In this document: positions 22,785 to 64,000 of the stretch, one piece after another
How the letters are laid out: the number at the start of each line of letters is the position of its first letter
Numbering within the stretch: position 1 is the first letter of the stretch
Source of the DNA: a virus
IMG/VR virus record: IMGVR_UViG_3300045988_120048
Span: 1 to 64,000 of that record
DNA: 64,000 nucleotides
Reading direction: 5' to 3' (one strand)
Translations under genes and position numbers: made by a program
Notes under the pieces: model-generated
The model's input: the letters and a program-made list of their open reading frames with translations, nothing else
What the model was told of the DNA's origin: nothing
Database searches by the model: none

Positions 22785-23085
22785 TAAAATGGCGAGGCTA
22801 ACTGGAGACAGTTAGAAAAATAAATTGGGTGAATTTAGGGAAACCTAAATAAAATCATTATATTTGTAGTATATCAATTTATGCTACAAAGTAAGTGATT
22901 TTACAAGGCAATCCTAAGCCAAGCTATAGCTTAACAACTATAGAAGGTTCAGAGACTAACAGTTGAAACTCCTTTTAAGGAGAATATAATACTGACACGA
23001 GCGCCCGACATCCTTATGGGATGAAGATATAGTCCGATACCTAGAGGAAACTTTAGGATGCAAGATAAAGAACTTGCTATAACAT
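22785..23085 (+). mobile_element. group I intron (ORF-less) in amidoligase paralog
   Basis: Contains GGTTCAGAGACTAACAG (R element) and GAAGATATAGTCCGA (S element) in correct order; flanked by the two halves of one amidoligase reading frame. Confidence 0.7.
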
Positions 23086-23424
23086 TTGTATTATTGGTGT
23101 AATTTCATTAATGCTCTTTGTTATCAGGTAAATAAAACTATCGAGTTTAGATTTCTTCGTCCAACCTATAGCTTTAAGAAGATCCTCCTATGGCTTTATA
23201 TATTCAACGGCATTTTAAGATATGCTGAGGAGTACTATGTGCCGGGATGTCACACTAATCTAACTGTGATTATGCAGAAGTGTTATCCTTCGGACTTGGC
23301 AAAAGAACTTTGCCTTGGTATAAAGAAGCTTTGGGCACTTAGTGTAAATCAGCGTGGAAACGGTGATCCTATCGGAGCTGACGTTTGGATGGAGGAAGAA
23401 TTGTTTAACAGCTTAAAGATTTAA
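23086..23424 (+). CDS. amidoligase paralog, 3' exon
   Basis: Track ORF (TTG start artefact); continues the amidoligase after the intron. Confidence 0.5.
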   Translation: MYYWCNFINALCYQVNKTIEFRFLRPTYSFKKILLWLYIFNGILRYAEEYYVPGCHTNLTVIMQKCYPSDLAKELCLGIKKLWALSVNQRGNGDPIGADVWMEEELFNSLKI

Positions 23425-23430
23425 CAAAGT

Positions 23431-24012
23431 ATGGCAAAACAGGTATTAGAAATTGAAGTTCCAGATGGTAAAAAAGCCATTTGGAAGGATGGTCGTGTTG
23501 TCTTCGAAGATGTAGATACTATGGAAAGTATCAAAACTATCGAGGACGCTGCTCAATTTCTCGCAGACAAGAGGATCTGTGAGGATATTCTGGACTCATT
23601 ATCTAGACTTCCTAAGGACTCATTTGAGTGGAAGATAGCTGCTTATAGGGCAGTGGTTGCAGCTGTAACCTATAATGAACAGAGGCATCTTACCACTGGA
23701 GAACGTTGGTTTCCTACTATTGAGTTCTGTCGACCTGGAAAGCTTAAGAATTGTTGCGGTGACATCGTTGTAGGACGAATCAAATCAGAAGGAGAAGAGT
23801 TCGATGTCGTGGGCGGTCACGCTTATAACGGCGCGAGTGCGGGTCTCGGTTCCTTCTACTCGTCTTACGGCGTGTCTTACGCCTGGACGTATATCGGCTT
23901 CCGGTCGGTTGGTTCAAAGAAAGCCGCTCTATACATTTCTAAGCAATTTGGAAAGCTTCTGTTTGAGGTTAGTTATGGTGGTACGAACTGTGATTGGAGA
24001 TGGATGGCATAG
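23431..24012 (+). CDS. hypothetical protein (contains a local GC-rich patch 23800-23900)
   Basis: ORF track, 193 aa. Confidence 0.45.
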   Translation: MAKQVLEIEVPDGKKAIWKDGRVVFEDVDTMESIKTIEDAAQFLADKRICEDILDSLSRLPKDSFEWKIAAYRAVVAAVTYNEQRHLTTGERWFPTIEFCRPGKLKNCCGDIVVGRIKSEGEEFDVVGGHAYNGASAGLGSFYSSYGVSYAWTYIGFRSVGSKKAALYISKQFGKLLFEVSYGGTNCDWRWMA

Positions 24013-24088
24013 TCATAATCTGTATATCAGTAGTAGCACTATTCATTGTAGACACAATTTGTGACACTATTAAGGATTGTAAGAAAAA

Positions 24089-24610
24089 ATGATGGAGTGG
24101 TATTACATTCTGGGAATCATCTCTTATGGTATTTTCATTGTCCAATTCCTTCTCTCCAACTTCTTTGGTTGGGGAGATTTGGATTTAGACATTGATTTTG
24201 ATGGTGAACCAGACTTTGGACTTGGAGATGTTCTCTCCTTCAAAGGATTAGTTCATTTTGCAATGGGCTTCTCCGGATGGCTTATGCTGGCGGGAAAGGT
24301 TACCCTTACCACCTTAGCAATAGCTTCTGTAATTGGTTTTGCATTTATTGTGATTTTATACTATGCCTATAGGCTATGTTTAAAGTTCAATAGTGAACCC
24401 CAAATCAAAAGTGGAGAAAGTTTAGTTGGAAAGGAAGTAGCAATTTCTGTCCAGATTTCAGAAATGGAATACTCTGGAAACTGTATAACAGACTCTGGAT
24501 ACATTCCATTGGATAGGTGCAGACTTTCAAAGCCAGCAAACCACACAATAAAGTGTGGAGACATTCTTCACATTGACTCGTATAAGTCAGGAATTTATTT
24601 TATTTCTTAA
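24089..24610 (+). CDS. NfeD-like membrane protein (N-terminal TM helices plus C-terminal beta-rich OB-like domain)
   Basis: Hydrophobic N-terminal half; immediately upstream of and co-oriented with an SPFH/flotillin gene, the classical NfeD-flotillin pairing. Confidence 0.45.
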   Translation: MMEWYYILGIISYGIFIVQFLLSNFFGWGDLDLDIDFDGEPDFGLGDVLSFKGLVHFAMGFSGWLMLAGKVTLTTLAIASVIGFAFIVILYYAYRLCLKFNSEPQIKSGESLVGKEVAISVQISEMEYSGNCITDSGYIPLDRCRLSKPANHTIKCGDILHIDSYKSGIYFIS

Positions 24611-24628
24611 TTAATAAAAATTTTATAA

Positions 24629-26437
24629 ATGTTAACAGAAAGTTTAGTTATTGCAGGCGCAATAGTTGTGCTTGTAATCTTGACCCTCATCGGTCTTATG
24701 TCACGTTATCGTCGTTGTGCAAGTGATGAAATCTTGGTAGTCTTTGGTAAGACTGGCAAGAAAGTTGGAATTAATCCAGCAACTGGCAAGAAGGAAACAA
24801 CAATTCTTCCTTCTAAGATCATCCATGGCGGAGGTACCTTTGTATTCCCTGTAATTCAGGATTGGAAGAAGATGTCTCTGAAACCAATTCAGATTCAGAC
24901 AGAGGTAGAAGGTGTGTCAAGTCAGATGATTAAGGTCAAGATTCCGGTTACCTTGACTACTGGAATTGGTACAACTGATGTACTCATGCAAAATGCTGCA
25001 AGTCGTTTCCTGACTGCTAAACCTGATGAGATTTCTGCTCAAATTACTGATATTCTTATTGGTGAAATGCGTGCTTTGATGGCTACTATGACCATTGAAG
25101 AGATCAATGCTGACCGAATCAAGTTCCTTGGTAATGCTAAGGAGGATATTGAGACTGAATTGAACAAGGTAGGTTTCAGTATTATTAACATTAACAATGC
25201 TGATATTACTGATGATGCTGACTATATTAAGAATCTTGGTAAGAAGGCAGCTACCAAGGCAAAGGCTCAGGCTGAAGCAGACATCGCTGAGGAGGAAAAG
25301 AAGGGTGACATTCAGATTGCTGAAACCAATAAGGAGAAAGCAATTGCTGTAGCTGCTGCAGAGAAGGATCAAGCTACTCAGGTGGCTCAGACTAAGCAGG
25401 AGCAGGAAGTAAAGGTTGCCGAGATCGAGAAGAACAAGGCAATTAGTCTTGCAGAGGCTGATAAGACTAAGGAGTCTGAGGTTGCTAATCAGCAGGCTGA
25501 TAAGGAAGCTGCTACCGCTGCTGCACAGGCTCGTTCAGCTGCTGCTGTAGCAAAGTCTGAAGCAGATGCTCTTGCTGCACAGGCAGAGGCAGAGGCTGAG
25601 AAGAATATTCGTATGGCTAAGGCTGAACAGCAGCAGGAAGCTGAAACCAGAAAGGCTATTAATGAGCAGGAAGCTAAGGTAGCTGAGTATGATGCTGAAA
25701 AGCGTAAGCGTACAGCTGAAGCTAATAAGCAGGCAGGCGTAGCTGAGCAGACAGCAACTATTGAGGTTTCTAAGGCACAAGCTGAGGCTGCTAAGGCACA
25801 GGCTGAAGCAGTCCGTGTTGAGGGTGTATCTAAGGCTGAAGCTGAAGTAGCAATTGCTAAGAAGAATGCTGAAGCTAAGGAGGCACAGTTGAACGCTGAG
25901 TCTATTGTTCCTGCTCAGAAGAAGAAGGAAGCTGTAGTTATTGAGGCTGAGGCTGAGAAGCAGAAGAAGATTGTTGAGGCACAGGCTGAGGCTGAAGCAA
26001 TTAAGCAGAAAGCTTTAGCTGAGGCTCAGGCAATCCAGGCTAAGGCAGAAGCTGAGGCAGAGGGTAACAAGAAGAAACTCCTTGCTGAGGCAGAGGGTAA
26101 GCGTGCCTCTTTGATGGCTGAGGCTGATAAGGTTCAGGCTATTGAGATGGCTCCAGCACTTGCAATTGAGAAGATGATTGAGACAGGTATGACTCCGGAG
26201 ATGATTGTTCAGTATAAGACTGTCGATCAGCTTAAGGGTATTGCCGAAGCTCAGGCTGAGGTTTATGAGCATATCCATCTTGGTGAGGTTACTGTTTATG
26301 GTAACGAGAACACTGCTGGTAACTTCATGGCTTCAATGGCTGAGAATCTCAATCCAGCATTTGAACTTCTCAAGTCTATTCCTTTCAAGAAGACTCTCAA
26401 TGCTATAGCAGGCAAGGAAGAGGTCAAGAATGATTAA
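24629..26437 (+). CDS. flotillin-like SPFH/band-7 protein with long Ala/Glu/Lys-rich coiled coil
   Basis: N-terminal TM segment, SPFH-like region, then about 300 aa of EA/AEA/KAQAEA repeats (flotillin architecture). Confidence 0.7.
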   Translation: MLTESLVIAGAIVVLVILTLIGLMSRYRRCASDEILVVFGKTGKKVGINPATGKKETTILPSKIIHGGGTFVFPVIQDWKKMSLKPIQIQTEVEGVSSQMIKVKIPVTLTTGIGTTDVLMQNAASRFLTAKPDEISAQITDILIGEMRALMATMTIEEINADRIKFLGNAKEDIETELNKVGFSIININNADITDDADYIKNLGKKAATKAKAQAEADIAEEEKKGDIQIAETNKEKAIAVAAAEKDQATQVAQTKQEQEVKVAEIEKNKAISLAEADKTKESEVANQQADKEAATAAAQARSAAAVAKSEADALAAQAEAEAEKNIRMAKAEQQQEAETRKAINEQEAKVAEYDAEKRKRTAEANKQAGVAEQTATIEVSKAQAEAAKAQAEAVRVEGVSKAEAEVAIAKKNAEAKEAQLNAESIVPAQKKKEAVVIEAEAEKQKKIVEAQAEAEAIKQKALAEAQAIQAKAEAEAEGNKKKLLAEAEGKRASLMAEADKVQAIEMAPALAIEKMIETGMTPEMIVQYKTVDQLKGIAEAQAEVYEHIHLGEVTVYGNENTAGNFMASMAENLNPAFELLKSIPFKKTLNAIAGKEEVKND

Positions 26438-26537: not shown

Positions 26538-26621
26538 GGAGGGATAGCACGTAATTGGAAGCGTCACAGTCTTCTAAACTGTTGCCATATGGCCTTCAGG
26601 GTTCGAATCCCTGTCCCTTCA
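26538..26621 (+). tRNA. type II (long variable arm) tRNA with apparent anticodon UCU (Arg-like); atypical
   Basis: Acceptor GGAGGGA/TCCCTTC, anticodon stem ACAGT/ACTGT with loop CTTCTAA, variable-arm hairpin GCCATATGGC, T-arm CAGGG-TTCGAAT-CCCTG. Confidence 0.5.
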
Positions 26622-26746
26622 CATTATTATTAATTTTTGATGGGCATTCTTCCCTTATATGTTTAAAAAGAAATGATTTATGTATTATGTAGAGCAAATG
26701 GTTTGAAGAAAAAGAAAATTTAGAGAATATGATTCTCGTGTAGAAA

Positions 26747-27595
26747 ATGAGTTATGAAGACATAGGTAGACATTATGGTTGTAGTGGCTCAAATATTAAG
26801 AAAGTTGCTATTAGAATTGGTATTCAACTCCCTTAGAGAAGAAAATCAAAAGAAAGTGAAACTTTCAATAAGGGAACTGGACAGAAGTATTACTGTCTGA
26901 ACTGTGGAAAGTTGTTAAATCAAGACAATGGTGGTAGCTACAAGCATAAATTTTGTGATAACAAATGCTAGAGGGAATATCAGCACAAAATTGGGTATCA
27001 GAAAATACTAGATGGAGATTCATCAATAATGAGGGCTAATTACTCTCCACATGCTTTTAAGGACGATATACTTCAGGAACAAAATGGAGTATGTGCTATA
27101 TGTGGTTCAAAGCCTGAGTGGAATGGTAAACCTCTAGTATTTATTTTGGATCATATAGATGGTCATGCATCTAATAATATTAGAACTAATCTTAGATGTA
27201 TATGCCCAAACTGTGATTCTCAATTAGATACCTATAAATCTAAAAACAAATGTGGAGAAAGGAGTTACTATCGCTATCATAAATATGAGGATATAACTAA
27301 GCAAAAAGATAATGAACTAGTATTTAAGGAACTAAATCTCAATTTAGACATAAAGGTATGTACTATAGGGGGAGAAGAAATCAACCTTACAAAGAATGAA
27401 TTTAATCTCCTTGAATTTCTTATAAAGAACAAGAACAAAATACATTCTAGACAGGAAATCCTTAATAATGTATGGGATTCTAAAGTTTCTTTAAGAACTG
27501 TAGATACTACTATGTCGAGGTTGCGTAAAAAAATGAAAAATTTAGGTAAGTATTTAATAACTAGATTAGGATTTGGATACGGTATTTTGGAATGA
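26747..27595 (+). CDS. HNH endonuclease fused to C-terminal OmpR/PhoB-type winged-helix domain; two in-frame TAGs (26834, 26969)
   Basis: ATG 26747 gives MSYEDIGRHYGCSGSNIKKV...YCLNCGKLL...FCDNKC-TAG-..., paralogous to the N-terminus of the 5539 gene. It continues in frame into track ORF 27029-27595, which has HNH motifs CAICG...LDHIDGH...CPNC and a trans_reg_C-like LTKNEFNLLEFL...RTVDTTMSRLRKKM. Confidence 0.6.
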
Positions 27596-27612
27596 GGTTT
27601 TGCCATAATCTT

Positions 27613-27945: not shown

Positions 27946-28959
27946 ATGAAAAATTTTATGAAGAAATTTATTTTCATCATGAGTTTGCTGTTTACTCTGT
28001 GTAGTTTTACCTACTCACAAACAGCGTATGAAGAATCTAAAATCCTTGATAACACTTCTATTAGTGTTGTAGGTGGAGCAACTACTCCTCTGGACTTTAA
28101 CTCAGTATTTCCAGTAAATGGAGTTGCTGGTATTAAGTTGCAGAAGGACTTTACTCCTGTATTTGGGTTTAATATCGAAGGATTGGCTTCCTTTGGTGAT
28201 AACCACTATGGTAGTGCTCCTACTGTAGTAAAATCTGTTAATACCGGATTGAACGGAGTTGTTAACTTCTCTAACCTGCTGTGCGGATATAATGGAGCCC
28301 CTCGGAGGTTTGAAGTAAGCACTGAGACTGGTATTGGCTGGCTGCATAGTTGGACAGGACACTGTAACTATATTACCTCTAAAACTGGAGCGGTATTGTC
28401 ATTCAATCTAGGTAAGGAGAAGGCTCACTCGATTATAGTTAATCCTGCAGTATACTGGAATCTGAACAAGACAGGTCATGTAGAGTTCAATAAGAATTAT
28501 GCTCAGCTTGGTGTCTTGATTGGATGGGTATATCACTTTAAGACTTCTAATGGTACAAGAAGCTTTAAGGCATATGACATTGCATCAATGAACAATGAAA
28601 TTAATTCTCTTAAGAAGGATTTAGCAAAGAAACCTACAGAAATTGTAAAGGAAGTTGTTAAGACTGAAGTTGTTACTAATACAATTGGTAACACAGTGAT
28701 TTTCTTTGCACAAAATTCTGCAAAACTTACTGGAACCGCAATGTCTGAATTGTCTAAGATTCCATCTGGTTCTAAGGTAAGCATTATTGGTTCTGCGTCT
28801 CCAGAAGGCTCCTCTAATTACAATCAGAAGTTGTCGGAGAAACGTGCAAAAACTGTTTCCAAATTCTTAACTGGAAATGGTGTAATCGTAGAGAATTGTA
28901 TTGGAGCTGGTGTTACTGACACTACTAGTGGTCGTGTAGCAATAGTTACTATTAAGTAA
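27946..28959 (+). CDS. OmpA-family outer-membrane protein (signal peptide, beta-rich N-domain, OmpA-like C-domain)
   Basis: Signal peptide MKNFMKKFIFIMSLLFTLCSF; C-terminal GSASPEGSSNYNQKLSEKRAKTV matches the OmpA-like domain motif (NxxLSxxRA). Confidence 0.65.
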   Translation: MKNFMKKFIFIMSLLFTLCSFTYSQTAYEESKILDNTSISVVGGATTPLDFNSVFPVNGVAGIKLQKDFTPVFGFNIEGLASFGDNHYGSAPTVVKSVNTGLNGVVNFSNLLCGYNGAPRRFEVSTETGIGWLHSWTGHCNYITSKTGAVLSFNLGKEKAHSIIVNPAVYWNLNKTGHVEFNKNYAQLGVLIGWVYHFKTSNGTRSFKAYDIASMNNEINSLKKDLAKKPTEIVKEVVKTEVVTNTIGNTVIFFAQNSAKLTGTAMSELSKIPSGSKVSIIGSASPEGSSNYNQKLSEKRAKTVSKFLTGNGVIVENCIGAGVTDTTSGRVAIVTIK

Positions 28960-29138: not shown

Positions 29139-29218
29139 TACCTCCTTATATCAGTGGTAGAAGTTTAACAAAGTCTATATTAGTGAAACTGTCAGTGGTT
29201 CGAATCCACTAGGAGGTA
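29139..29218 (+). ncRNA. tRNA-like element (perfect acceptor ACCTCCT/AGGAGGT and T-arm AGTGG-TTCGAAT-CCACT; body does not fold into a canonical anticodon arm)
   Basis: Middle segment is about 6 nt longer than a class I tRNA; only an AGTTT/AAACT stem with a 19-nt loop is evident. Confidence 0.4.
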
Positions 29219-29253
29219 CTACCTGTTCCTGTAAACAAAAAAAAAAGAAGAAA

Positions 29254-30528
29254 ATGGCTGATTTTAATATGAGTAAATTGTGGCTCGGTAAAGATGGATA
29301 TTACCGAGATGTAAACGGCAACAAGATTGCCTAGAAAGGGCAGCCCATTTCTGGTGCTGCTTGGAGATATTTAGCAGGAAAATATGGAAGGGAAGTTGCC
29401 AATAGAACCTCAATGAATACTAGAAATGGAAACATATTCTAGAATGGACGTTGGCGTTTTAATGATATCAAATCTTCTAAGCAAGGGAAAACTGCTACAT
29501 GGGATGAAGCAGCTTCTAGAATAGAGGAAAATGCAAAGGCAGCAGGAGCTAGAAAGACAGCAACCGGCTATACATAGAGAAACCCTTTCAATAATAAAGA
29601 TACCTATCTAAATCAAGATACAAAGAATAAAGCTATGAAGGCTTATAGAGCACGACAGAAATCATAGACTTCTGCTGAGAATCCTGATGAATTTAGTTGG
29701 AGTGATCTAAATCCTTTCAAGAAAGGTGCTTGGGAAGGCAACTGGGATAGTGCAGCAAAAAACTTCGTTGATTCCTTTAAATCAATTCCTGATATTTGGA
29801 AAAAGGGGTATGCTAGAAGAGGTGAAATGTACGATAATGTTCCTCAGAGTGTGTTGGGTCCAAAACGAAACACAGGTGCTTTGGCACGATTCAATGATAC
29901 TCTTGGAGATATTTCTAGAACTGGAAATGCTGTTCTGGGAGGAACTATTGGAACTGCCTTGCAGCTCTTGCTACCATAGAAGGTTGAGAGAGAAGCTGGC
30001 AATCTAGGACAATATCTAGATCTAGGTAAAGATGTTAACTCTGTCAGAAGTTATTTAACTCCAGGAGAAGAAGGAATATTGCCAGATGATCCTAGGAATA
30101 AGGGATTTGCTGATTAGAATTTTGCCTGGACTGGACTAGACGAATAGTAGAGAAGAAATATTAACGATGATGCCAACTTTGCTATGGCTATCCTTGGAAC
30201 TAAAGGTATGAAGGGTGGAGTCTCTAGACTTAAGACTGGAGTCTCTGGAATGATAAGAGATGGAGTAGGTACTACGCTGAAGAATAATTGGAAACCTATT
30301 ATGTCTCATACACCAGGTGCTGCTAACCTTTATTAGGCTGGAAGTGCACTTAATTCTGTAAGAAGGGCATTAGCCCCTAAGAGACTAGGAGGAGCAGAAG
30401 GAATTGGCAGTAGATCTGCAAATGTAGGAAAAGCTGCATTTCAGGGGCTTATGGCTTCAGATCCTACTATGGCACTATACCCTTATGCACATAGCAGTTA
30501 TATGGTAAATTTATCTAATAATAATTAA
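29254..30528 (+). CDS. hypothetical protein encoded with about 9 in-frame TAG codons (read-through required); ends at TAA
   Basis: One frame is continuously open from ATG 29254 to TAA 30526 except for TAG codons (for example GCC TAG AAA; TTC TAG AAT; GAA TAG TAG AGA). No in-frame TAA or TGA. Track ORF 29726-30007 is in a different, spurious frame. Confidence 0.55.
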
Positions 30529-30530
30529 AT

Positions 30531-46215: not shown

Positions 46216-47315
46216 TAACTGGTAGAGAAGAGTTTTTTAACCTAGTTCGTGAAGGACGAGAGGGTAAGAATATTGGCTTATCTGTAGGTTCTAAAAGATT
46301 AGAAAGCTTTATAGATGGCTATTTACCAGGAACTAGCTACTTGATAGGTGCTGCGTCTGGTGTAGGTAAATCAACCTATGCTCTATGGACATTTGTATAT
46401 CAGCCACTTATTCACTTTCTTGATGGAGAGTGTCCGGAGAGAGATCCAAGATGGCTTCTCTTTAGTCTAGAGATGACTAGAAGTCAAGTATATGCAAAAC
46501 TAGTATCCATGTACATTATGGATAAGTTTGGAGTAGAACTCAGATATAAGGAGATGTTCTCTAGAGGTAAAGATTGTATCCTATCTGATGATAGGTATGA
46601 ACTTCTAGAGAAAGCTTCTGAATTTATGGATGTACTTGATGAAAGACTAACCTTTTACGAGGGGAGTCTAACTGAGGCAGTATATCTTAGAGAAGTCGAA
46701 AAAGAACTCAGAAAGTATGGAGAATTTACGGAGGATGGTTATATCCCTAATAATCCTCAACAGATTCTTGGAGTTCTTGTGGATCACTTTACTCTCGTTA
46801 AAGCAACTTCTGGAAGATCTAAGAAAGAGGAAATAGATGCAATTTCTAGAGACTCTGTAATGCTTAGAAATAAAACTAAGATTATGAGTCCTATTCATAT
46901 TGCTCAGTTTAATAGAGATTCTAATAATCAAGAAAGAATGAAGCAAGGATTGCAAGATCCTTCCTCTAATGATTTCAAGGATAGTGGTGCTCTCTATGAG
47001 GATAGTCAAGTAGTTCTTGCACTATTTAGTCCTCATAAATATAAGCTCTCATCTTATAGGAAGTACGATATTAAGACGTTGGAACAATGTTTCATAGGTC
47101 TATTCCTTTTAAAGAGTAGATTTGGTACTTCCGACATAATGGTTCCTCTAGGTTATTATGGTGATAGTTCTCACTATATAGAATTACCTAAACCTGATGA
47201 AATATTTGATTATGAAAAATATAAAAGTCCAGAATGGGCTTTGGAAGAGCAGCAAGATAACGTAAAGATAGAAGATGATAATAAAACTATTCAAAAATCT
47301 AAATTTACATTATAA
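46212..47315 (+). CDS. DnaB-family replicative helicase (C-terminal RecA-like domain)
   Basis: Walker A GAASGVGKST, then LLFSLEMT (H1a-like) and the DnaB-like layout. Confidence 0.65.
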   Translation: MITGREEFFNLVREGREGKNIGLSVGSKRLESFIDGYLPGTSYLIGAASGVGKSTYALWTFVYQPLIHFLDGECPERDPRWLLFSLEMTRSQVYAKLVSMYIMDKFGVELRYKEMFSRGKDCILSDDRYELLEKASEFMDVLDERLTFYEGSLTEAVYLREVEKELRKYGEFTEDGYIPNNPQQILGVLVDHFTLVKATSGRSKKEEIDAISRDSVMLRNKTKIMSPIHIAQFNRDSNNQERMKQGLQDPSSNDFKDSGALYEDSQVVLALFSPHKYKLSSYRKYDIKTLEQCFIGLFLLKSRFGTSDIMVPLGYYGDSSHYIELPKPDEIFDYEKYKSPEWALEEQQDNVKIEDDNKTIQKSKFTL

Positions 47316-47599
47316 TGGCTGAATTAATAGCAATCGTCGGTGAAAGTGGAAGTGGTAAAACTTCAAGTGTTAGAAATCTTGACCCAGCAAAGACCTTTAT
47401 CATATCAACAACTGGTAAGCGTCCTGGAATTAAGGGAGCTAACAAGAAATATCCTTCTTTCACTGTTCAGGATGGAAAAGTTTCTGGCAATTTCTTTGCC
47501 TCTGCAAATGTTGATCAAATCGGTAAGGTATTACAGATTATTGACAAGAAAATGCCGCACATTACAACTGTCGTCATAGACGATAAACAAATCTTTTAA
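47315..47599 (+). CDS. Sak4-like / AAA_24 phage ATPase, 5' exon
   Basis: Walker A GESGSGKTS and Walker B TVVIDD; ORF stops before a LAGLIDADG gene and the same protein family resumes at 48691. Confidence 0.55.
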   Translation: MAELIAIVGESGSGKTSSVRNLDPAKTFIISTTGKRPGIKGANKKYPSFTVQDGKVSGNFFASANVDQIGKVLQIIDKKMPHITTVVIDDKQIF

Positions 47600-48690
47600 A
47601 ACACATTAGATATTTTGAGAACCCACGAAATATTATTATATTTATATCATAATAATTAACTTAATTTATTTTTGATATGAATAGAAAATATAACGATTCT
47701 CAAATCATTGAATTACATTCTGCTGGTCTTACAGACCGAGAAATTGCTGAAACTCTTGGTGTATCTCCTAATAATCTTGCTACTAAGAGAAGGAAATTGG
47801 GACTTACTCCAAATAAAAGTAAGAGAGACACATATAAATTAACAAAGAAAGAATTAGAAATTTTAGTAGGAACCATATTAGGAGATTCTACTATTAGGTA
47901 TGTGCACAGTCAGTGCAAATATCCAAATCTAACTTTTTCACATGGACTTAACCAAAAGGAGTACTTCGATTGGCTTACTGATAAGTTATCTAATCTGAGA
48001 TCTTCCATCGGAAAATATAATTCTAAGTATATTAGAACAAACGGGGAAATCGCTGAAAGATTAGTTTATACAGGAAGTAATATGTTCTGTTTGAAAGAAC
48101 TTCGTGACGTTTTTTATACGAAAGAGGGAAAGAAAATTATCCCCATTGAGTATATCAAGAGTATCTTCTCTGAATTAAGTCTATATTGTTTATTTATGGA
48201 CGATGGAAGTTATGATATTAGAAGCAATAGCTATATAATTAATACACAATGTTTTTCTAGAGAAAATCTCGAAGAATTTGTATGTTTATTACATAACAAA
48301 TTTGGGCTTGATTTTAGTATTAAGTCTGATAATTGTCTATATCTAAAGCATTCGTCAAATGAACAAATGTATAAAATCCTTACTTCAGTAAATGAATGTA
48401 AATCAATGGACTACAAATGTGGTAGTCGTCGTAAAACTCCGTTAAACGGGGAAACCCCAGAAATGGACAATCCCGTGCTAAACCCTCAAGAAATTGAGGA
48501 AAATGCCGATCGACTAGAGGTGATGCCAAATAAGTAATGTTGTGGCTATAAAATCCTCCACGAAAGCGGGGCACTACTCAAAGTACAGTTCGAGAGAATA
48601 GGAAATGAGCCAAAGATATAGTCAGGACTATATAGTAATATATAGAACTGGAGGATAAAGAGCCTTCAGGATAACATATCGTTCCAGTAT
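47600..48690 (+). mobile_element. group I intron carrying a LAGLIDADG homing endonuclease, splitting the Sak4-like ATPase gene
   Basis: P/Q-like element TAAACGGGGAAACCCCAGAAATGGACAATCCCGTGCTAAAC at 48444-48485 (homologous copy in the ligase intron at 63790), S element AAGATATAGTC at about 48608, R-like GTTCGAGAGAATAG at about 48586. Confidence 0.65.
47677..48537 (+). CDS. LAGLIDADG homing endonuclease with N-terminal HTH
   Basis: Motifs ILVGTILGDSTI and LYCLFMDDGSY; N-terminal HTH (LTDREIAETLGVSPNNL). Confidence 0.7.
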   Translation: MNRKYNDSQIIELHSAGLTDREIAETLGVSPNNLATKRRKLGLTPNKSKRDTYKLTKKELEILVGTILGDSTIRYVHSQCKYPNLTFSHGLNQKEYFDWLTDKLSNLRSSIGKYNSKYIRTNGEIAERLVYTGSNMFCLKELRDVFYTKEGKKIIPIEYIKSIFSELSLYCLFMDDGSYDIRSNSYIINTQCFSRENLEEFVCLLHNKFGLDFSIKSDNCLYLKHSSNEQMYKILTSVNECKSMDYKCGSRRKTPLNGETPEMDNPVLNPQEIEENADRLEVMPNK

Positions 48691-49104
48691 GTGATGGGCT
48701 TTGAGGCAATGGATAGAGCTAAGGAGAAGAGCTATGATAAATTTACTGATATGGCACAGCATGCGTATCAGGTATTGAAGTCTGCAATGAACATGCGTGA
48801 CGACTTAAATGTTGTAGTCTCTACTCATAGTGAAAACATGGGTGATAGAGTGTCTCCTTATTACAAAATGAAGACTCTCGGAAAGATGTTGGATTCTGTG
48901 ATTACTCTGGAAGGTTTGTTTACTTATGTGTTCTTCACCACTATACAGCGCGATGAGGACAATAAGCCTTCATATAAGTTTATCACTAATTCTGATGGTA
49001 CTTGTACTGCTAAGTCTCCAATGGGATTATTTAACGATATTTATATCGATAATGATCTTGATTATGTAGTAAAACGTATTAAGGAATATAACGAGGAAGA
49101 CTAA
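48691..49104 (+). CDS. Sak4-like ATPase, 3' exon
   Basis: Continuation of the AAA_24-like protein after the intron. Confidence 0.5.
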   Translation: MMGFEAMDRAKEKSYDKFTDMAQHAYQVLKSAMNMRDDLNVVVSTHSENMGDRVSPYYKMKTLGKMLDSVITLEGLFTYVFFTTIQRDEDNKPSYKFITNSDGTCTAKSPMGLFNDIYIDNDLDYVVKRIKEYNEED

Positions 49105-56700: not shown

Positions 56701-56713
56701 AAATTAAATTATT

Positions 56714-57995: not shown

Positions 57996-60164
57996 ATGTA
58001 TAGAGTTACAAAACGCGAAGGAAATTTAGAGTCTTTTGATATTAGCAGAATAGAAAGTGCTATACGTAAGGCTTTTATGTCTTGTGAGACAGAAGTTAGT
58101 GAAGATGTTATTAAAAATATTGCAAAAGCAGTTAATATCTGGGATACAATCAGTATAGAGGACATTCAAGATCAAATAATTGAACTCCTCGGAGATTATG
58201 ACTATCCCGATGTAGCTGCTGCCTATAGATCTTATAAGGATAAGCAATCAAGAGCTAGAATGCTTTGGCGGAAAATTCATTATATGGACGAATATATAGA
58301 CAGTAATGAAAATGCTGCTACTATGTCCAATACTGATGGAAATGCGAATACTTCTGCTAAGAATGTTGCAACTCTGGAGCCAGAGGTATTTAAGGACGAT
58401 TTCAGAACTATACAGAGGTATAGGATGAAGAGGAAGCTTAAGCAGATGTATCCAGAGGTTGCATATGATTATGAGAGAGATATAGAAGGACATGAAATTT
58501 ATGTTCATGATGAGGCTTCAACTCCAACTCTAAAGCAATATTGTATGGCTGTATCCCTATATCCTCTAATGTTGGAAGGATGTGGAGTTCTAGATAAAAC
58601 TACTCCATCAGAGCCAAATGACTTGCAGTCCTTCAGTGGGCAATTAGTAAATTCTATATTTACTCTATCTGCTCAATGCAAGGGAGCCGTAGCAGTAGGT
58701 TCGTATTTTATTGCTTTAAATTACTATATCATTGCTGAATATGGAGAAAAGTGGTATGAACATTTAGATGATGTAGTTACATCTAGCAACTGCAAAAAGT
58801 CTAGAACTATGAGAAATATGATTGAAAAAGCATTCAAGCAATTTGTTTGTGGAATCAATCAGCCTGCAGGTAATAGGGGTTATCAAAGCCCATTCACCAA
58901 TATCTCATATTATGATCATACTTACTTCTCATCATTGTTTGGAACTTTCTACTATCCAGATGGTACTCAACCTGAGTGGGAAGCAGTTGATGCTTTGCAA
59001 AGATTGTTCATGAATTGGTTTAATCAGTGGAGATTGAGACAACTCGTGGCGTTTCCAGTAGAAACTATGGCTATGGTATATGATCCAAAAACAGGGGATA
59101 TCATAGATAAGGATTACAAGGATTTAACTGCTGAGATGTATGCTAAGGGTCATTCCTTCTTCACTTATATATCTGATAGTGCAGACAGTCTTGCTTCATG
59201 CTGTAGACTAAGAAATGAGTTATCAGAAAATACGTTTAGTCCTACATCTGGTATGACGGGAATCAAGACCGGAAGTGCCAATGTTATTACTTTGAATGTG
59301 AACAGAATTATTCAAAACTACTTTGGACCTTGTAAGCATAAGGAGGTAGTGGAGAAAGAGCTCTGGAATGATTCTGTGCATAGGTCAGAATTTGTAAGGT
59401 ACCTTACTTCAATCTTGGAGAGAGTTTATAAGTATCATATTGCTTATAAGACTATGCTTTATGAGTGGGAGAGTAAAGGTGCCTATGCCTCTTCTAATGG
59501 AGGATTTATTAATATAAAGGACTTGTATAGTACAATTGGTATAAATGGATTAAACGAGGCTGCCAGATTCTTGGGTTTAGAAGTCTCTAACAATCCAGAA
59601 TATATTCAATTTCTACAATTAGTTCTTGGAACTATTAAGGAACAGAACAAGAAACATTCTATTCACGACAAGAAGAGACCTTTCTTATTCAATAGTGAAT
59701 GTGTTCCTGCTGAGTCTTTAGGAGGTAAGAATTATCGCTGGGATAAATCCGATGGGTTTTGGGTTCCCGAAGACGAGAATCTTTATAATTCATATTTCTA
59801 TAATGCTCACGACAATACCTCTGTTCTTGACAAGTTTATATTGCATGGAAGGCAAACTGCCTCTTATTGCGATGGAGGTTCTGCACTTCACTGTAACCTA
59901 CAAGATCATTTAAGCAAGGAACAATATCTTAAGCTTATTGATTTTGCAGTAAGTCAGGGAACCAATTACTTCACTTTTAATATTCCAAATAGTCAGTGTG
60001 ATGATTGTCATTTCATTACTAAGCATCCTATAAAGGTATGTCCGAAATGTGGAAGCTCTCATATTACTCAATATACAAGAATTATTGGTTATTTAAGACC
60101 AATTACAGCCTTTGGTTCTGATAGAAAAATAGAGGCTGGAGAAAGAACTTACAGTACATTATAA
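57996..60164 (+). CDS. nrdD: anaerobic ribonucleoside-triphosphate reductase (class III)
   Basis: N-terminal ATP-cone (VTKREGNLESFDISRIESAIRKA), C-terminal Zn ribbon CDDCHF...CPKCGSS and glycyl-radical motif TRIIGYLRP. Confidence 0.85.
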   Translation: MYRVTKREGNLESFDISRIESAIRKAFMSCETEVSEDVIKNIAKAVNIWDTISIEDIQDQIIELLGDYDYPDVAAAYRSYKDKQSRARMLWRKIHYMDEYIDSNENAATMSNTDGNANTSAKNVATLEPEVFKDDFRTIQRYRMKRKLKQMYPEVAYDYERDIEGHEIYVHDEASTPTLKQYCMAVSLYPLMLEGCGVLDKTTPSEPNDLQSFSGQLVNSIFTLSAQCKGAVAVGSYFIALNYYIIAEYGEKWYEHLDDVVTSSNCKKSRTMRNMIEKAFKQFVCGINQPAGNRGYQSPFTNISYYDHTYFSSLFGTFYYPDGTQPEWEAVDALQRLFMNWFNQWRLRQLVAFPVETMAMVYDPKTGDIIDKDYKDLTAEMYAKGHSFFTYISDSADSLASCCRLRNELSENTFSPTSGMTGIKTGSANVITLNVNRIIQNYFGPCKHKEVVEKELWNDSVHRSEFVRYLTSILERVYKYHIAYKTMLYEWESKGAYASSNGGFINIKDLYSTIGINGLNEAARFLGLEVSNNPEYIQFLQLVLGTIKEQNKKHSIHDKKRPFLFNSECVPAESLGGKNYRWDKSDGFWVPEDENLYNSYFYNAHDNTSVLDKFILHGRQTASYCDGGSALHCNLQDHLSKEQYLKLIDFAVSQGTNYFTFNIPNSQCDDCHFITKHPIKVCPKCGSSHITQYTRIIGYLRPITAFGSDRKIEAGERTYSTL

Positions 60165-61007: not shown

Positions 61008-61017
61008 ATGTGAATGT

Positions 61018-62468: not shown

Positions 62469-62471
62469 GCT

Positions 62472-62834
62472 ATGGGATTAGATATATTTCTTACTAAAAA
62501 GAAACGTTCAGAGATTGGTTACTTTAGAAAAGTTAATTTTCTAGTAAAATTCTTTGAGAAGAAGGGGTTTGATGTTCCAAATCAGACTCCACTGGTAATC
62601 AAGAGAGAAGATGCAGAAGAACTACTTTCTAAGTGTGAGGAAGTTTTGTGGGATCACTCAAAAGGTCCAGAATTGCTTCCTACCATGTCTGGATTCTTCT
62701 TTGGAAGTACAGACTATGATGATTACTACTATGATGACGTAGAAGCAGTTAGAGACTACGTCAAAGACAAGTTACTTCCTGAGTTTGATACTCTAGAGGA
62801 AGGAGAAGACATATACTTTGAAACTTGGTATTAA
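62472..62834 (+). CDS. hypothetical acidic protein
   Basis: ORF track. Confidence 0.4.
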   Translation: MGLDIFLTKKKRSEIGYFRKVNFLVKFFEKKGFDVPNQTPLVIKREDAEELLSKCEEVLWDHSKGPELLPTMSGFFFGSTDYDDYYYDDVEAVRDYVKDKLLPEFDTLEEGEDIYFETWY

Positions 62835-63038
62835 ATGAAAGGATTTATTAAAACAGAAGCAATAGATGGATGGTTAGATAAAGGAAATGGTATAACTACC
62901 GTGTACCTACGTAGTGGCATTGCAATTAATATTCCAACTAGTGATTTTATGACTGGATGGAATAGTAATAAGGAAATTGCCGAAACCATAACAAAAGATC
63001 AAATGATTTGTATTGGTGGTTTAAATAAAAATAGTTAG
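62835..63038 (+). CDS. hypothetical protein
   Basis: ORF track. Confidence 0.35.
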   Translation: MKGFIKTEAIDGWLDKGNGITTVYLRSGIAINIPTSDFMTGWNSNKEIAETITKDQMICIGGLNKNS

Positions 63039-63039
63039 A

Positions 63040-63348
63040 ATGATAACTAAGGAAGAATTTATTGATCTTATTTTGAAACAACAGGAGTGGTCTAATAGAA
63101 TTGATGAAGTTTCAGAAGCTCTCAGTGTGCCTACACTCTTCGAGAGTGACTGGGTAGAGTATGCATCTGTCCTCTTCGATAAAACTTTAGATCTCTTGTT
63201 TAATGAGGATGGAGTAGATGACATAGACTGGTGGATGTATGAAAAATCTGGAAACCCAGAACTCAAGATGTGGGATGAAAATGGAAAGGAAATTCCTACA
63301 GATACAGTAGAAGATCTTTGGAATTTGGTTAAGGATAATCAGAAATGA
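63040..63348 (+). CDS. hypothetical protein
   Basis: ORF track. Confidence 0.4.
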   Translation: MITKEEFIDLILKQQEWSNRIDEVSEALSVPTLFESDWVEYASVLFDKTLDLLFNEDGVDDIDWWMYEKSGNPELKMWDENGKEIPTDTVEDLWNLVKDNQK

Positions 63349-63780
63349 TTAAGTATCTCCTTGGTAAAGCATCAACTGGAAAGTTTCGTTTCGCAGTAGT
63401 TGAATGCGATGAAGAATGGCATGAACCTGAACATGGCTACGTAATACAGCGTAGCTATGGTCAGGTAGGCGGCAAGACTACACTATCGCCTAAGATTATT
63501 GTAGATAGGGCTAAACAGAAAAGAACTTGGAAAGAGCAATATACTCTTCAATTCAATTCTGAAACCAAGAAGTTCTTAGACAAGGGATATGTTGAAGTAG
63601 AAAAGCATCCTAAGGAATACACCCTTGATGAGCTTCAGTCAATTTTTGGAGAGGTTAAGACTAATCAATATGGGGTAATTAAACCCCAACTTGCTAAACA
63701 AGCAGATAAGGTGACTAATCCAAAGATATTTGAAAAGAAGTGGCTTATTAGTAGAAAGCTTGACGGTAGATTTATGCTGT
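63345..63780 (+). CDS. ATP-dependent DNA (or RNA) ligase, 5' exon ending just after motif I
   Basis: Adenylation motif I ISRKLDGRF (KxDG). The reading frame then runs into an intron-like structured element and stops at 63876-63878. Confidence 0.55.
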
Positions 63781-64000
63781 CGTTAAATCCGGCTAAACGG
63801 GGAACCCTGAGATGGGAATCCCGTGCTAAATTAGTTAGTAATAACTATAAATGCCTAGAGACTAGGAATGCTTCCTAAAAATACTTCAGGAAAATAAATT
63901 TCCCACGAAAACCGGATTTCGTCTAAATATTTTATTTTGATGGGATAAAAATTTTAGTTATTATTGCATAAGTTTAATTTTAAAAATTAATTTAGCTTAT
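63781..64000 (+). mobile_element. group I intron-like element interrupting the ligase gene (extends beyond window)
   Basis: TAAACGGGGAACCCTGAGATGGGAATCCCGTGCTAAAT (63793-63830) is homologous to the P/Q-like element of the intron at 48444; a downstream TAGAGACTAGGA resembles an R element. Confidence 0.5.

What the first reader, a model, noticed from the sequence alone, without database searches (positions are those of the whole stretch)
22785..64000. Three to four group I-type introns in one window, two sharing a near-identical P/Q-like structural element
The ORF-less intron at 22785-23085 shows textbook R (GGTTCAGAGACTAACAG) and S (AAGATATAGTCC) elements. The Sak4-like ATPase gene is split by an intron (47600-48690) holding a LAGLIDADG endonuclease gene and an S element (AAGATATAGTC). 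The ligase gene is interrupted immediately after its KxDG active-site motif (63781 onward). The 48444-48485 element and the 63793-63830 element are clearly homologous (TAAACGGGGAAACCCC.AGA..GGA.AATCCCGTGCTAAA), so they are related introns inserted in different essential genes. Insertion at catalytic-motif codons is typical of homing-endonuclease-driven intron spread. The fourth candidate (19068-20191) has the endonuclease gene but no core elements I could recognise.
Basis: partly seen in the sequence, partly recalled or inferred. Interest (0 to 1): 0.6.

Follow-up and report, generated by a model that had tools for sequence, protein, structure and literature searches.

The report
Four group I introns in gut phage
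This stretch of a large crAss-like gut phage genome carries four real self-splicing-type (group I) introns, three with their own homing-nuclease genes, splitting four enzyme genes at conserved motifs; this is a known habit of these phages, although one intron is a variant that the standard detection model misses.

Summary
All four candidates are real group I introns; only the coordinates needed correcting. The exact limits are I4 19029-20194 (COOH-NH2 ligase, LAGLIDADG ORF in P5), I1 22782-23088 (Amidoligase_2, no ORF), I2 47585-48681 (Sak4-like ATPase, LAGLIDADG ORF in the P1 loop) and I3 63768 onward. I3 is 944 nt and is completed on contig L001 (ATP-dependent DNA ligase, HNH/EndoVII-like ORF in P8).

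- **Splice sites.** Each follows a U that pairs with G in P1, ends in G, and lies in codon phase 0. Each restores an ungapped conserved motif: NLRSAG|FHIHVG, KWNIPTR|YYWCNF, VVIDD|FQYVMG, SRKLDG|VKALFYY.
- **Intron-free relative.** An IMG/VR genome 96-99% identical in DNA lacks all four introns, and its alignments break exactly at these limits.
- **Rfam.** Only I1 (88 bits) and I2 (50 bits) pass. I3 is hidden by its ORF and I4 by a variant P7 (GCGUA/UACGC).
- **I4-type fold.** Twelve I4-type elements support a full group I fold: 94.5% of cells paired and 36 of 56 pairs compensatory.
- **Shared I2/I3 element.** It is real and is the P4-P5-P6 domain.

Dense introns in crAss-like phages were reported by Yutin et al. 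2021, so these are new members of a known kind. Splicing itself is inferred.

The parts
18600..19028 (+). Exon 1 of the phiEco32-like COOH-NH2 ligase gene; ends ...NLRSAG (GGT)
   Evidence: Spliced protein aligns 1-262 in one piece to the cr108_1 COOH.NH2 ligase. Junction NLRSAG|FHIHVG matches NLRTTGCHFHIG and ALRSAGGHIHIG.
19029..20194 (+). Intron I4 (1166 nt), a group I intron with a variant P7. P1 19024-19028/19042-19046 (U.G at the splice site); P10 19036-19041 with 20195-20200; P2 19049-19062; P3 19070-19075/20086-20091; P4 19080-19085/19999-20004; P5 19088-19092/19992-19996, enclosing the ORF; P6/P6a 20005-20035; P7 20041-20045/20123-20127; P7.1/7.2 20046-20078; P8 20093-20114; P9 20132-20157; P9.1 20160-20181; terminal G at 20194.
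   Evidence: Helix coordinates and complementarity. Absent from 93-99% protein-identical alleles L088-L092, with breakpoints 19028|20195. Orthologs at the same site in L257, L258 and L264. Covariation on A3. nhmmer canonical profile hit at 20033-20196, E = 1.6e-9. No Rfam hit.
19174..20046 (+). LAGLIDADG homing-endonuclease ORF (290 aa, N-terminal HTH) in the P5 loop of I4. Its 3' end overlaps P5', P4', P6 and the 5' strand of P7.
   Evidence: Pfam LAGLIDADG_3, E = 9.4e-12. PHROG 4645 endonuclease, E = 2.2e-45.
20195..20557 (+). Exon 2 of the COOH-NH2 ligase gene (starts FHIHVGYENPD)
   Evidence: Pfam COOH-NH2_lig, E = 7.4e-9; alignment A2.
21885..22781 (+). Exon 1 of the Amidoligase_2-like gene (ends ...KWNIPTR)
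   Evidence: Weak Pfam Amidoligase_2 match. Junction aligned with cr108_1 and phi14:2 g041 'amidoligase enzyme'.
22782..23088 (+). Intron I1 (307 nt, no ORF), a canonical IA-type group I intron. P1 22777-22781/22792-22796; P2 22798-22815; P3 22825-22831/23002-23008; P4 22835-22840/22912-22917; extended P5; P6/P6a 22918-22948; R/P7 22954-22958 with S/P7' 23030-23034; P7.1/7.2 22960-22994; P8 23009-23023; P9 23040-23057; P9.1 23060-23077; terminal G at 23088.
   Evidence: Rfam RF00028 88.3 bits, E = 3.4e-21. The RNAfold MFE reproduces P1, P2, P3, P6a, P7.1/7.2, P8, P9 and P9.1, with z = -7.5. L102 is identical to the predicted spliced junction at 90 of 90 bases. Orthologous introns in L101 and L104.
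23089..23424 (+). Exon 2 of the Amidoligase_2-like gene (starts YYWCNFINAL...TIEFRF)
   Evidence: Alignment.
47315..47584 (+). Exon 1 of the Sak4-like / AAA_24 ATPase gene (Walker A GESGSGKT; ends at Walker B VVIDD)
   Evidence: Weak Pfam AAA_24 match. tblastn to HK620 hkaL 'Sak4-like ssDNA annealing protein'. Alignment A1 shows that KQIF is not part of the protein.
47585..48681 (+). Intron I2 (1097 nt), group I. The internal guide GUCGUC at 48425-48430 pairs with the exon end GACGAU at 47579-47584 across an ~840-nt P1 loop that holds the ORF. P3 48437-48441/48567-48571; P4 48446-48451/48471-48476; P5 48457-48466; P6/P6a 48477-48506; P7 48512-48516/48619-48623; P7.1/7.2 48517-48558; P9 48628-48645; P9.1 48648-48669; terminal G at 48681.
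   Evidence: Rfam 50.1 bits. Helices. The 6-nt guide is unique within the intron. Absent from L024 and L009 (protein 100% identical), with breakpoint 47584|48682. The ORF-deleted form scores 93 bits against the independent profile.
47677..48537 (+). LAGLIDADG homing-endonuclease ORF (286 aa, N-terminal HTH). Its last ~113 nt overlap the guide, P3-P6 and the 5' strand of P7.
   Evidence: Pfam LAGLIDADG_2, E = 5.4e-25. PHROG 11023, E = 2e-18.
48443..48482 (+). P4-P5-P6 element of I2, shared with I3
   Evidence: blastn 80% over 55 nt. Exact 13-mer found twice against 0.06 expected.
48682..49104 (+). Exon 2 of the Sak4-like ATPase gene (starts FQYVMGFEAM)
   Evidence: Alignment A1.
63345..63767 (+). 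Exon 1 of the ATP-dependent DNA ligase gene; ends at motif I ...SRKLDG
   Evidence: Exon 2 on L001 carries Pfam DNA_ligase_A_M. Spliced protein aligns 4-406 in one piece. Junction SRKLDG|VKALFYY matches SRKVDGLRCSFYW.
63768..64000 (+). 5' part of intron I3. The whole intron is 944 nt, L001 10424-11367, which equals window-equivalent 63768-64711. P1 63762-63767/63776-63781; P3 63787-63792/63912-63917; P4 63797-63802/63819-63824; P5 63805-63816; P6/P6a 63825-63854; P7 5' strand 63860-63864; P7.1/7.2 63865-63903; P8 5' strand 63920-63927. Beyond the window lie the HNH/EndoVII-like ORF (L001 10655-11359), P8', S/P7', P9, P9.1 and the terminal G.
   Evidence: Partial Rfam hit, 18.5 bits. L001 sequence. 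Helices. PHROG 1035 'endonuclease VII', E = 2.1e-27. Absent from L132 and L106 (protein 99% identical), with breakpoint 63767|L001 11368. The ORF-deleted form scores 73.9 bits, E = 4.5e-22.

Best explanation
The window comes from a large crAss-like gut phage; its close relatives are 165-190 kb contigs. It carries four group I introns of the phage IA type, inserted in phase 0 at conserved motif codons of four enzyme genes: COOH-NH2 ligase, Amidoligase_2, Sak4-like ATPase and ATP-dependent DNA ligase.

Inferred splicing mechanism. After transcription each intron folds into the P3-P9 core. An internal guide pairs with the last 5-6 exon bases to form P1, with a U.G wobble at the cleavage site. Exogenous G attacks after that U. 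The adjoining guide bases pair with the start of exon 2 (P10), and the terminal G is bound in P7 (a bulged base followed by a G-C pair) for exon ligation. This restores an intact reading frame.

Inferred mobility. Three introns carry a homing-endonuclease gene looped out of a peripheral element: LAGLIDADG in P5 of I4, LAGLIDADG in the P1 loop of I2, and HNH/EndoVII-like in P8 of I3. Each ORF's 3' end overlaps core helices. These nucleases are inferred to cut intron-less alleles during co-infection, so that repair copies the intron in (homing).

What is shown and what is inferred. Shown: the boundaries, the fold (by covariation and profile matches), the nuclease families, and the presence/absence polymorphism. 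Inferred: catalytic self-splicing and nuclease activity.
For: - **Rfam.** RF00028 passes its gathering score for I1 (88.3 bits) and I2 (50.1 bits), and gives a partial hit for I3.
- **Junctions.** All four predicted junctions give ungapped alignments to uninterrupted homologs.
- **Intron-free relative.** IMG/VR contig 3300045988_129723 is 96-99% identical in DNA and lacks all four. Its blastn segments end and restart at 19028|20195, 22786|23089 (a 5-base overlap from microhomology at the 22781|23089 junction), 47584|48682 and 63766|L001 11368. L102 matches the predicted I1 spliced junction at 90 of 90 bases.
- **Not an assembly artefact.** The I3-bearing allele is seen on 19 contigs.
- **Splice-site rules.** P1 with a U.G pair, P10, and a 3'-terminal G are present in all four.
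- **Independent profile.** A profile built from 112 IMG/VR introns scores 95.2 (I1), 93.0 (I2), 73.9 (I3) and about 30-32 bits (I4). The best of 800 shuffles scored 0.8.
- **I4-type covariation.** 94.5% of cells are paired, against 30-43% when partners are slid. 36 of 56 pairs have compensatory changes, and 0 of 500 shuffles reached the observed values.
- **Mobility of the I4 type.** It occurs in other genes and sites: the DNA ligase at RGG|E in L133, L134 and L137, and elsewhere in L011 and L129.
- **Nuclease ORFs.**
- **Thermodynamic fold.** The I1 MFE fold reproduces the helices, with z = -7.5.
- **Literature.** Group I introns are dense in Delta and Zeta crAss-like phages, including in the AAA ATPase ATP_43b (PMC7886860).
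Against: - No RNA evidence of splicing is available here.
- I3 and I4 fail the Rfam gathering score. I4 gives no hit at all, and I3 gives nothing in a 10-kb search.
- In I2 the guide lies about 840 nt from the 5' splice site, so P1 must form across a long ORF-containing loop. P8 of I2 and P5 of I4 are only weakly defined.
- P10 of I2 has one mismatch in 4 bp.
- No Pfam family matches the I3 ORF.
- Some of the introns may need a protein cofactor (maturase) or may splice poorly.
Confidence: 0.9

Rival explanations
1. I4, and possibly I3, are decayed or protein-dependent group I relics. They keep the fold but no longer self-splice, and rely on the encoded LAGLIDADG protein as a maturase or on host factors.
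For: I4 has a non-consensus P7 and J8/7 and gets no Rfam hit. Long ORF loops sit inside P5 (I4) and P8 (I3). The LAGLIDADG family includes maturases; this is established knowledge and was not tested here.
Against: The I4 type keeps every core helix under compensatory change across 12 diverged members. It also keeps an invariant J8/7 and a P7 with a bulged base followed by G-C, which indicates selection on the ribozyme. The host genes are intact in frame and conserved. The type occurs in at least 44 IMG/VR stretches and 75 GenBank phage records.
Confidence: 0.07
2. The genes are truly split. The upstream and downstream halves are translated separately, and the intervening DNA is merely an inserted free-standing nuclease gene cassette.
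For: ORF callers find TTG or GTG starts near the start of each exon 2. Three of the four inserts carry a nuclease gene.
Against: The splits fall inside catalytic motifs (KxDG|xR, Walker B, G|xHxH), which would leave non-functional halves. The inserts carry complete group I cores with guides matched to their own exon ends. I1 has no ORF at all. The insert limits obey the U...G rule.
Confidence: 0.02
3. The insertions are assembly chimeras of the metagenomic contig rather than real features of one phage genome.
For: The closest IMG/VR genome lacks all four.
Against: An independent Logan assembly (L001) is identical over 10.6 kb apart from one base and carries I3. The I3 exon-1 product is found on 19 contigs. 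Orthologous I1 and I4 introns sit at the same sites in other genomes. The insert limits are exact to the base and in phase.
Confidence: 0.01

Closest known systems
Phage subgroup IA (IA2-like) group I introns, such as T4 td/nrdB/nrdD, SPO1 and Twort, and the Bastillevirinae introns (PMC11878797)
   Same: P1-P10 architecture, with extra nested P7.1/P7.2 between P7 and P3'. R/S consensus GAGACUA / AAGAUAUAGUCC in I1-I3. ORFs looped out of peripheral helices. Insertion in conserved motifs of DNA-metabolism genes. Intron-plus and intron-minus alleles among close relatives.
   Different: The host genes here (two amidoligase-cassette genes, a Sak4-like ATPase, an ATP-dependent DNA ligase) and the phage lineage differ. 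Subgroup assignment was not tested against GISSD models. The comparison with the T4, SPO1 and Twort structures rests on my own knowledge.
Group I introns of Delta and Zeta crAss-like phages (Yutin et al. 2021, PMC7886860)
   Same: The same kind of phage: NrdD is 63-71% identical to Crassvirales phages, relatives are 165-190 kb, and there are many tRNAs, a TAG suppressor tRNA and TAG-recoded genes. Introns with LAGLIDADG genes in core genes, including the AAA ATPase ATP_43b, were reported, with up to 14 introns per genome.
   Different: That study identified introns by their endonuclease protein domains. Here the ribozyme cores, exact splice sites, guides and an intron-free near-identical genome are defined. 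Insertions in the amidoligase cassette and the ligase are not mentioned in the text I read. Zeta-group membership of this window was not tested phylogenetically.
I4-type elements in cultured phages (Clostridioides phiCD211, Staphylococcus 6ec, Flavobacterium phages, Bacillus vB_BsuS_PJN02, bajarodcaudo virus 1 MCP)
   Same: 67-79% identity over 80-159 nt of the P7-to-3'-end domain among the listed matches. In bajarodcaudo virus 1 the element abuts a split major capsid gene next to ORFs annotated 'intron associated endonuclease'.
   Different: These elements lie mostly under no annotated feature. Whether they have been described as group I introns I could not establish (one search found nothing).

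Membership tests
Group I catalytic intron (Rfam RF00028) | Covariance-model score at or above the gathering score (50 bits) | tested here: inconclusive
   I1 88.3 and I2 50.1 bits: met. I3 18.5 bits, partial: not met. I4 no hit: not met. Ten I4-type loci also gave no hit on the element.
Group I catalytic intron | 5' splice site after a U that forms a U.G wobble in P1 with an internal guide; 3'-terminal G; P10 with exon 2 | tested here: met
   All four meet this. In each intron the guide lies just upstream of P2 or P3.
Group I catalytic intron | Conserved core: P4-P6 domain, and P3-P8 domain with the P3/P7 pseudoknot, supported by covariation | tested here: met
   I4 type: 56 pairs, 94.5% paired, 36 with compensatory changes; P3 has 5 of 7 pairs and P6 has 9 of 11 pairs covarying. 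I1-I3: Rfam alignment, helix complementarity and profile scores of 74-95 bits.
Group I catalytic intron | G-binding site in P7 (a bulged nucleotide followed by a G-C pair) | tested here: met
   Read directly from the sequence. G(A)GACUA/UAGUCC in I1 and I3; U(C)GACUA/UAGUCA in I2; A(C)GCGUA/UACGCU in I4. In A3 the G-C after the bulge is invariant and the outer pair covaries AU/GC/CG.
Group I catalytic intron | Precise excision restores a functional gene; intron-less alleles exist | tested here: met
Group I catalytic intron | GTP-dependent self-splicing | not testable with these tools
   Needs an RNA experiment or RNA-seq.
Subgroup IA2-like phage introns | P7.1/P7.2 insertion between P7 and P3'; P9.1 | tested here: met
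   A nested pair of helices is present in all four. P7.1 has 4 of 5 pairs covarying in the I4 type. The GISSD subgroup models were not run.
LAGLIDADG homing endonuclease (ORFs of I4 and I2) | Pfam LAGLIDADG domain above the cut-off | tested here: met
   LAGLIDADG_3 45.5 bits (cut-off 22.5); LAGLIDADG_2 88.7 bits (cut-off 25). Cleavage activity was not tested.
HNH / endonuclease VII-like nuclease (ORF of I3) | Profile match to the nuclease family | tested here: inconclusive
   PHROG 1035 'endonuclease VII' E = 2.1e-27 and PHROG 3118 'HNH endonuclease' E = 3.7e-10. No Pfam family even at E <= 10.
Group II intron (suggested for candidate 4) | Domain V / group II RNA model hit and a reverse-transcriptase ORF | tested here: not met
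   No group II family hit at E <= 10 in 18900-20400. The ORF is LAGLIDADG, not a reverse transcriptase.
Intein | Insert translated in frame with the host protein | tested here: not met
   In-frame stop codons follow each 5' splice site: 19065, 22782, 47597, 63876.

The most novel reading that the evidence does not exclude
The I4 type (P7 GCGUA/UACGC, J8/7 GAAAAUG, invariant CUCCAAGAGUG before P3') may be an unmodelled sub-lineage of phage group I ribozymes. It is systematically invisible to Rfam RF00028 yet widespread: at least 44 IMG/VR stretches and 75 GenBank phage records from Bacteroidota and Bacillota phages, mostly unannotated. The pair formed by this genome and IMG/VR 3300045988_129723 (96-99% identical, with four introns against none) may capture very recent multi-intron invasion in a gut phage population.
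Probability: 0.3. Interest if true: 0.5.

Novelty: new member of a known kind. Interest (0 to 1): 0.38.

Why it matters
**Annotation.** These four genes would be mis-annotated as eight fragments plus three stray nuclease genes unless the introns are recognised. The exact splice sites given here allow correct protein models for this abundant gut-phage lineage.

**Detection limits.** Rfam alone finds only two of the four. ORF loops and a variant P7 hide the other two, so introns in phage metagenomes are probably undercounted.

**A natural test case.** The near-identical intron-free genome supplies ready-made homing-site substrates and a natural comparison for studying how quickly introns spread in gut phage populations.

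None of this changes current understanding of group I introns.

Tried and rejected
- **Megablast against GenBank phages.** Window 18000-25000 gave no match. The lineage was identified by tblastn of NrdD instead.
- **Rfam on candidate 4.** At E <= 10 it gave only chance snoRNA and miRNA hits.
- **Rfam on ten I4-type loci.** It hit two unrelated canonical introns in L296 but none of the I4-type elements.
- **Rfam on L001 10300-20534.** Nothing at E <= 1, so the complete I3 is also missed when its ORF is in place.
- **Pfam on the I3 ORF.** Nothing; PHROGs was needed.
- **First guess for the I2 5' splice site.** I placed it after KQIF at 47596. Alignment to homologs rejected this and placed it after VVIDD at 47584. 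The guide then turned up 840 nt downstream.
- **Group II intron and intein readings.** Both rejected (see the membership tests).
- **A free-standing nuclease helping the ORF-less I1.** Considered. The flanking ORFs 23431-24012 and 24089-24610 have no Pfam match and are also present in the intron-less relative L102, so there is no support.
- **Literature search for 'group I intron' with phiCD211.** Nothing found.
- **Covariance model of my own.** Not built. nhmmer profiles and pair counting answered the question.

Full report
**Source of the window.**
- There is no near-identical GenBank phage.
- The NrdD protein (57996-60164) is 63-71% identical to those of crAss-like phages cr85_1, cr111_1 and IAS virus and the unclassified bajarodcaudo virus 1. 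cr85_1 is classified in Crassvirales, Steigviridae.
- Close relatives in IMG/VR are contigs of 165-190 kb.
- The window holds about 22 tRNA genes, a tmRNA and a CUA-anticodon suppressor tRNA.
- This profile fits the large, intron-rich Zeta group of crAss-like phages described by Yutin et al. 2021 (genomes of 145-192 kb, up to 14 introns per genome, suppressor tRNAs; PMC7886860). I did not test that placement phylogenetically.
- An independent Logan assembly, L001, is identical to the window apart from one base over 10.6 kb and extends 10 kb past the window end.

**Checking the observation.**
- Rfam RF00028 passes its gathering score at 22773-23057 (88.3 bits) and 48363-48645 (50.1 bits).
- In a focused search it gives a partial hit at 63722-63917 (18.5 bits, E = 0.018), running from P1 to P3' and cut by the window end.
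- Candidate 4 gives nothing, including no group II family.
- The shared I2/I3 element is not chance. blastn finds 80% identity over 55 nt. The exact 13-mer ATCCCGTGCTAAA occurs twice, against 0.06 expected.

**Exact boundaries.** I derived each junction from the U...G rule and the P1 pairing, then tested it in two ways.

*Test 1: protein alignment.* The spliced proteins align without a gap to uninterrupted homologs.

| Intron | Junction in this phage | Uninterrupted homologs |
|---|---|---|
| I4 | NLRSAG\|FHIHVGY | NLRTTGCHFHIGY, ALRSAGGHIHIGG |
| I1 | KWNIPTR\|YYWCNF | KWNIHARYVWANL, KWNIRSRYFYLNF |
| I2 | VVIDD\|FQYVMG | VIIDDFQYVLS, VIVDDFQYVMS |
| I3 | SRKLDG\|VKALFYY | SRKVDGLRCSFYW, SRKIDGVRCSFYL |

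*Test 2: an intron-free relative.* IMG/VR contig 3300045988_129723 (175 kb) is 96-99% identical in DNA to the window and lacks all four inserts. Its blastn segments stop and restart at 19028|20195, 22786|23089 (a 5-base overlap from microhomology at the 22781|23089 junction), 47584|48682 and 63766|L001 11368. The predicted I1 spliced junction matches L102 at 90 of 90 bases.

*Resulting limits.*
- I4 = 19029-20194 (1166 nt)
- I1 = 22782-23088 (307 nt)
- I2 = 47585-48681 (1097 nt)
- I3 = 63768 to L001 11367 (944 nt; 233 nt lie inside the window)

All four are in codon phase 0.

**RNA anatomy.** Coordinates are.
- *P1 and P10.* In each intron a guide sequence just upstream of P2 or P3 pairs with the last 5-6 exon bases, ending in a U.G wobble: CUGGU/GCCAG, CUCGU/GCGAG, GACGAU/GUCGUC, GACGGU/GCUGUC. 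The bases immediately 5' of the guide can pair with the start of exon 2 (P10, 4-6 bp).
- *The I2 guide.* The 6-nt guide is unique within the 1097-nt intron and sits 7 nt before P3, about 840 nt from the splice site. The LAGLIDADG ORF therefore occupies the P1 loop.
- *Shared layout.* All four have P3, P4-P5-P6, P7 with a bulged base followed by G-C, nested P7.1/P7.2 (the phage IA-type feature), a J7.1/3 segment whose 5' part is CACGA in I1-I3 and CAAGA in I4 (CACGAAA in I2 and I3), P8, an A-rich J8/7, P9, P9.1 with an invariant 8-nt loop AUAAAGAR, and a tail GAUAAYA(n)G.
- *Thermodynamic check.* RNAfold of I1 alone reproduces P1, P2, P3, P6a, P7.1/7.2, P8, P9 and P9.1, with z = -7.5.

**Nuclease ORFs.**
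- I4: 290 aa, LAGLIDADG_3 with an HTH, in the P5 loop.
- I2: 286 aa, LAGLIDADG_2 with an HTH, in the P1 loop.
- I3: 234 aa, no Pfam match, but PHROG 'endonuclease VII' (E = 2e-27) and 'HNH endonuclease', in the P8 loop.
- In each case the 3' end of the ORF overlaps core helices.
- I1 has no ORF.

**Is candidate 4 really a group I intron?** Rfam is blind to it, so I tested it independently in four ways.
1. *Relatives of its 3' domain.* blastn found them in other loci already fetched. One sits in the DNA ligase of three related genomes, at RGG|E, a different site from I3.
2. *Collection scan.* A scan of IMG/VR for CTCCAAGAGTG...GTGAAAAKGTACGC found 44 stretches. These include orthologs at the same COOH-NH2 ligase codon (L257, L258, L264).
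3. *Covariation.* I aligned twelve diverged members from P3 to the 3' end, with the ORF loop removed from I4, L257 and L258 (A3). I then counted pairs for my proposed structure, including the P3/P7 pseudoknot:
   - 94.5% of cells are paired, against 30-43% when partners are slid by 1-3 columns.
   - 36 of 56 pairs have changes on both sides.
   - 0 of 500 shuffles reach any of the observed measures.
   - P3 has 5 of 7 pairs covarying, P6 has 9 of 11, P7.1 has 4 of 5, and P9.1 has 7 of 7.
   - The outer P7 pair varies AU/GC/CG, while the G-C after the bulge is invariant.
4. *Independent sequence profile.* I built it from 112 canonical phage introns retrieved from IMG/VR with AAGATATAGTC...GATAAAGA. 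It hits 20033-20196 at E = 1.6e-9.
   - Against ORF-deleted forms it scores 95.2 (I1), 93.0 (I2) and 73.9 (I3) bits, and 16 + 14 bits for I4.
   - The best of 800 shuffles scored 0.8 bits.

I4 is therefore a group I intron whose P7 (A(C)GCGUA/UACGCU) and J8/7 (GAAAAUG) differ from the R/S consensus. Rfam models R and S as unpaired sequence, which explains the miss. Rfam also failed on the I4-type element in all ten I4-type loci tried. It failed on the complete I3 as well when the ORF is left in place.

**How the four are related.**
- Global identity between the ORF-free cores is 65-69% for every pair, and I2-I3 is 68%.
- The P4/P6 variant ACGGGGAA...UCCCGUGCUAA shared by I2 and I3 is rare among other phage introns (2 of 112). 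I4 has a close version, ACGGUG...UACCGUGCUAA.
- I3 and I4 share their last 41 nt at 83%.
- The three ORF-bearing introns therefore look like a mosaic sub-lineage. I1 carries the more common P4-P6 type.

**Population picture.**
- Nearly all relatives in IMG/VR have intron-less alleles at the four sites.
- I1 orthologs occur in two genomes (L101, L104), and I4 orthologs in three loci (L257, L258, L264).
- I2 and I3 were not seen at these sites in IMG/VR, but the I3 allele is present on 19 Logan contigs.
- This presence/absence pattern among near-identical genomes is what mobile introns produce. The direction (gain or loss) is inferred, not shown.

**Comparison with what is known.**
- Dense group I introns with LAGLIDADG genes in core genes of Delta and Zeta crAss-like phages have been published. 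The AAA ATPase ATP_43b is one of the reported host genes, and it is plausibly the Sak4-like gene here, which lies next to a DnaB-like helicase gene. The source is PMC7886860.
- The failure of Rfam and GISSD models to recognise phage intron variants, and the splitting of hits by nuclease loops, have also been described (PMC11878797).
- The finding is therefore new members of a known kind.
- What is added here: exact splice sites and ribozyme models, the Rfam-invisible I4 type with covariation support, its wide occurrence (75 GenBank phage records, mostly unannotated), and an intron-free near-identical genome.

**Limits.**
- Splicing and nuclease activity are inferred.
- P8 of I2 and P5 of I4 are only loosely defined.
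- Alignment A3 includes three sequences whose ORF loops I removed by hand, and its structure was derived from these same sequences. That favours the unslid register to some degree.
- Subgroup assignment was not tested against the GISSD models.

Noticed in passing
window 13793-14123 (+): A tmRNA gene (Rfam RF00023, 65.7 bits, E = 2e-23) lies inside a phage tRNA array of about 22 tRNAs at 1.7-16.1 kb. ARAGORN did not call it.
   Followed up: no
window 29140-29219 and 29300-31997 (+): A suppressor tRNA with anticodon CUA is followed by two long reading frames (about 29.3-30.5 kb and 30525-31997). They are open only if TAG is read as sense (11 and 15 in-frame TAGs), which points to TAG recoding in part of this genome. 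The exons of the four intron host genes contain no internal TAG. The two ORFs were not searched against protein families.
   Followed up: partly
window 7001-7038 (+): Match to the abiF RNA motif (RF03085, 50.2 bits against a gathering score of 37) within the tRNA region.
   Followed up: no
window 16130-23424 (+): A cassette of amidoligase-type genes: C26 GATase 17984-18613, COOH-NH2 ligase, GATase_6 20560-21906 and Amidoligase_2. It is syntenic with crAss-like phage cr108_1 and, for the amidoligase gene and its aminotransferase neighbour, with Cellulophaga phage phi14:2. Two of the four introns have landed in it.
   Followed up: partly
window 26555-27595 (+): A reading frame with an HNH-like motif (CAICG...LDHIDGH...CPNC) and a C-terminal OmpR-type winged helix. 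It has 4 in-frame TAGs and begins inside tRNA-Arg 26538-26622. It may be a free-standing nuclease.
   Followed up: no
L133/L134/L137 about 1365-2500 (IMG/VR 089481, 085380, 058539): In three related genomes the DNA ligase gene carries an I4-type intron with an I4-like LAGLIDADG ORF at a second site (TASRGG|EHYDY), not at the KLDG site used by I3.
   Followed up: partly
L129 1560-1680 (IMG/VR 3300012983_000464): An I4-type intron carries an insert of about 110 nt in P7.1/P7.2 that contains a tRNA T-arm-like GGGGTTCGACTCCCC.
   Followed up: no
GenBank phages, e.g. phiCD211 28740-28864, Staphylococcus 6ec 22651-22725, bajarodcaudo virus 1 19925-20069: The I4-type 3' ribozyme domain has blastn relatives in 75 phage records (Clostridioides, Staphylococcus, Flavobacterium, Bacillus, Enterocloster). 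Most lie under no annotated feature, so they are probably unannotated introns. In bajarodcaudo virus 1 the element abuts a fragmented major capsid gene.
   Followed up: partly
window 63767 versus L132: The nearest intron-less ligase allele has A at the base before the I3 insertion site (GGA Gly). The intron-bearing allele has the T (U) that P1 needs. Other intron-less alleles have T.
   Followed up: no
window 20167-20174, 23065-23072, 48655-48662; L001 11340-11347: The 8-nt P9.1 loop AUAAAGAR is invariant in all four introns, and GATAAAGA at a fixed distance from S occurs in at least 120 IMG/VR elements. Its tertiary partner is unexplained.
   Followed up: no
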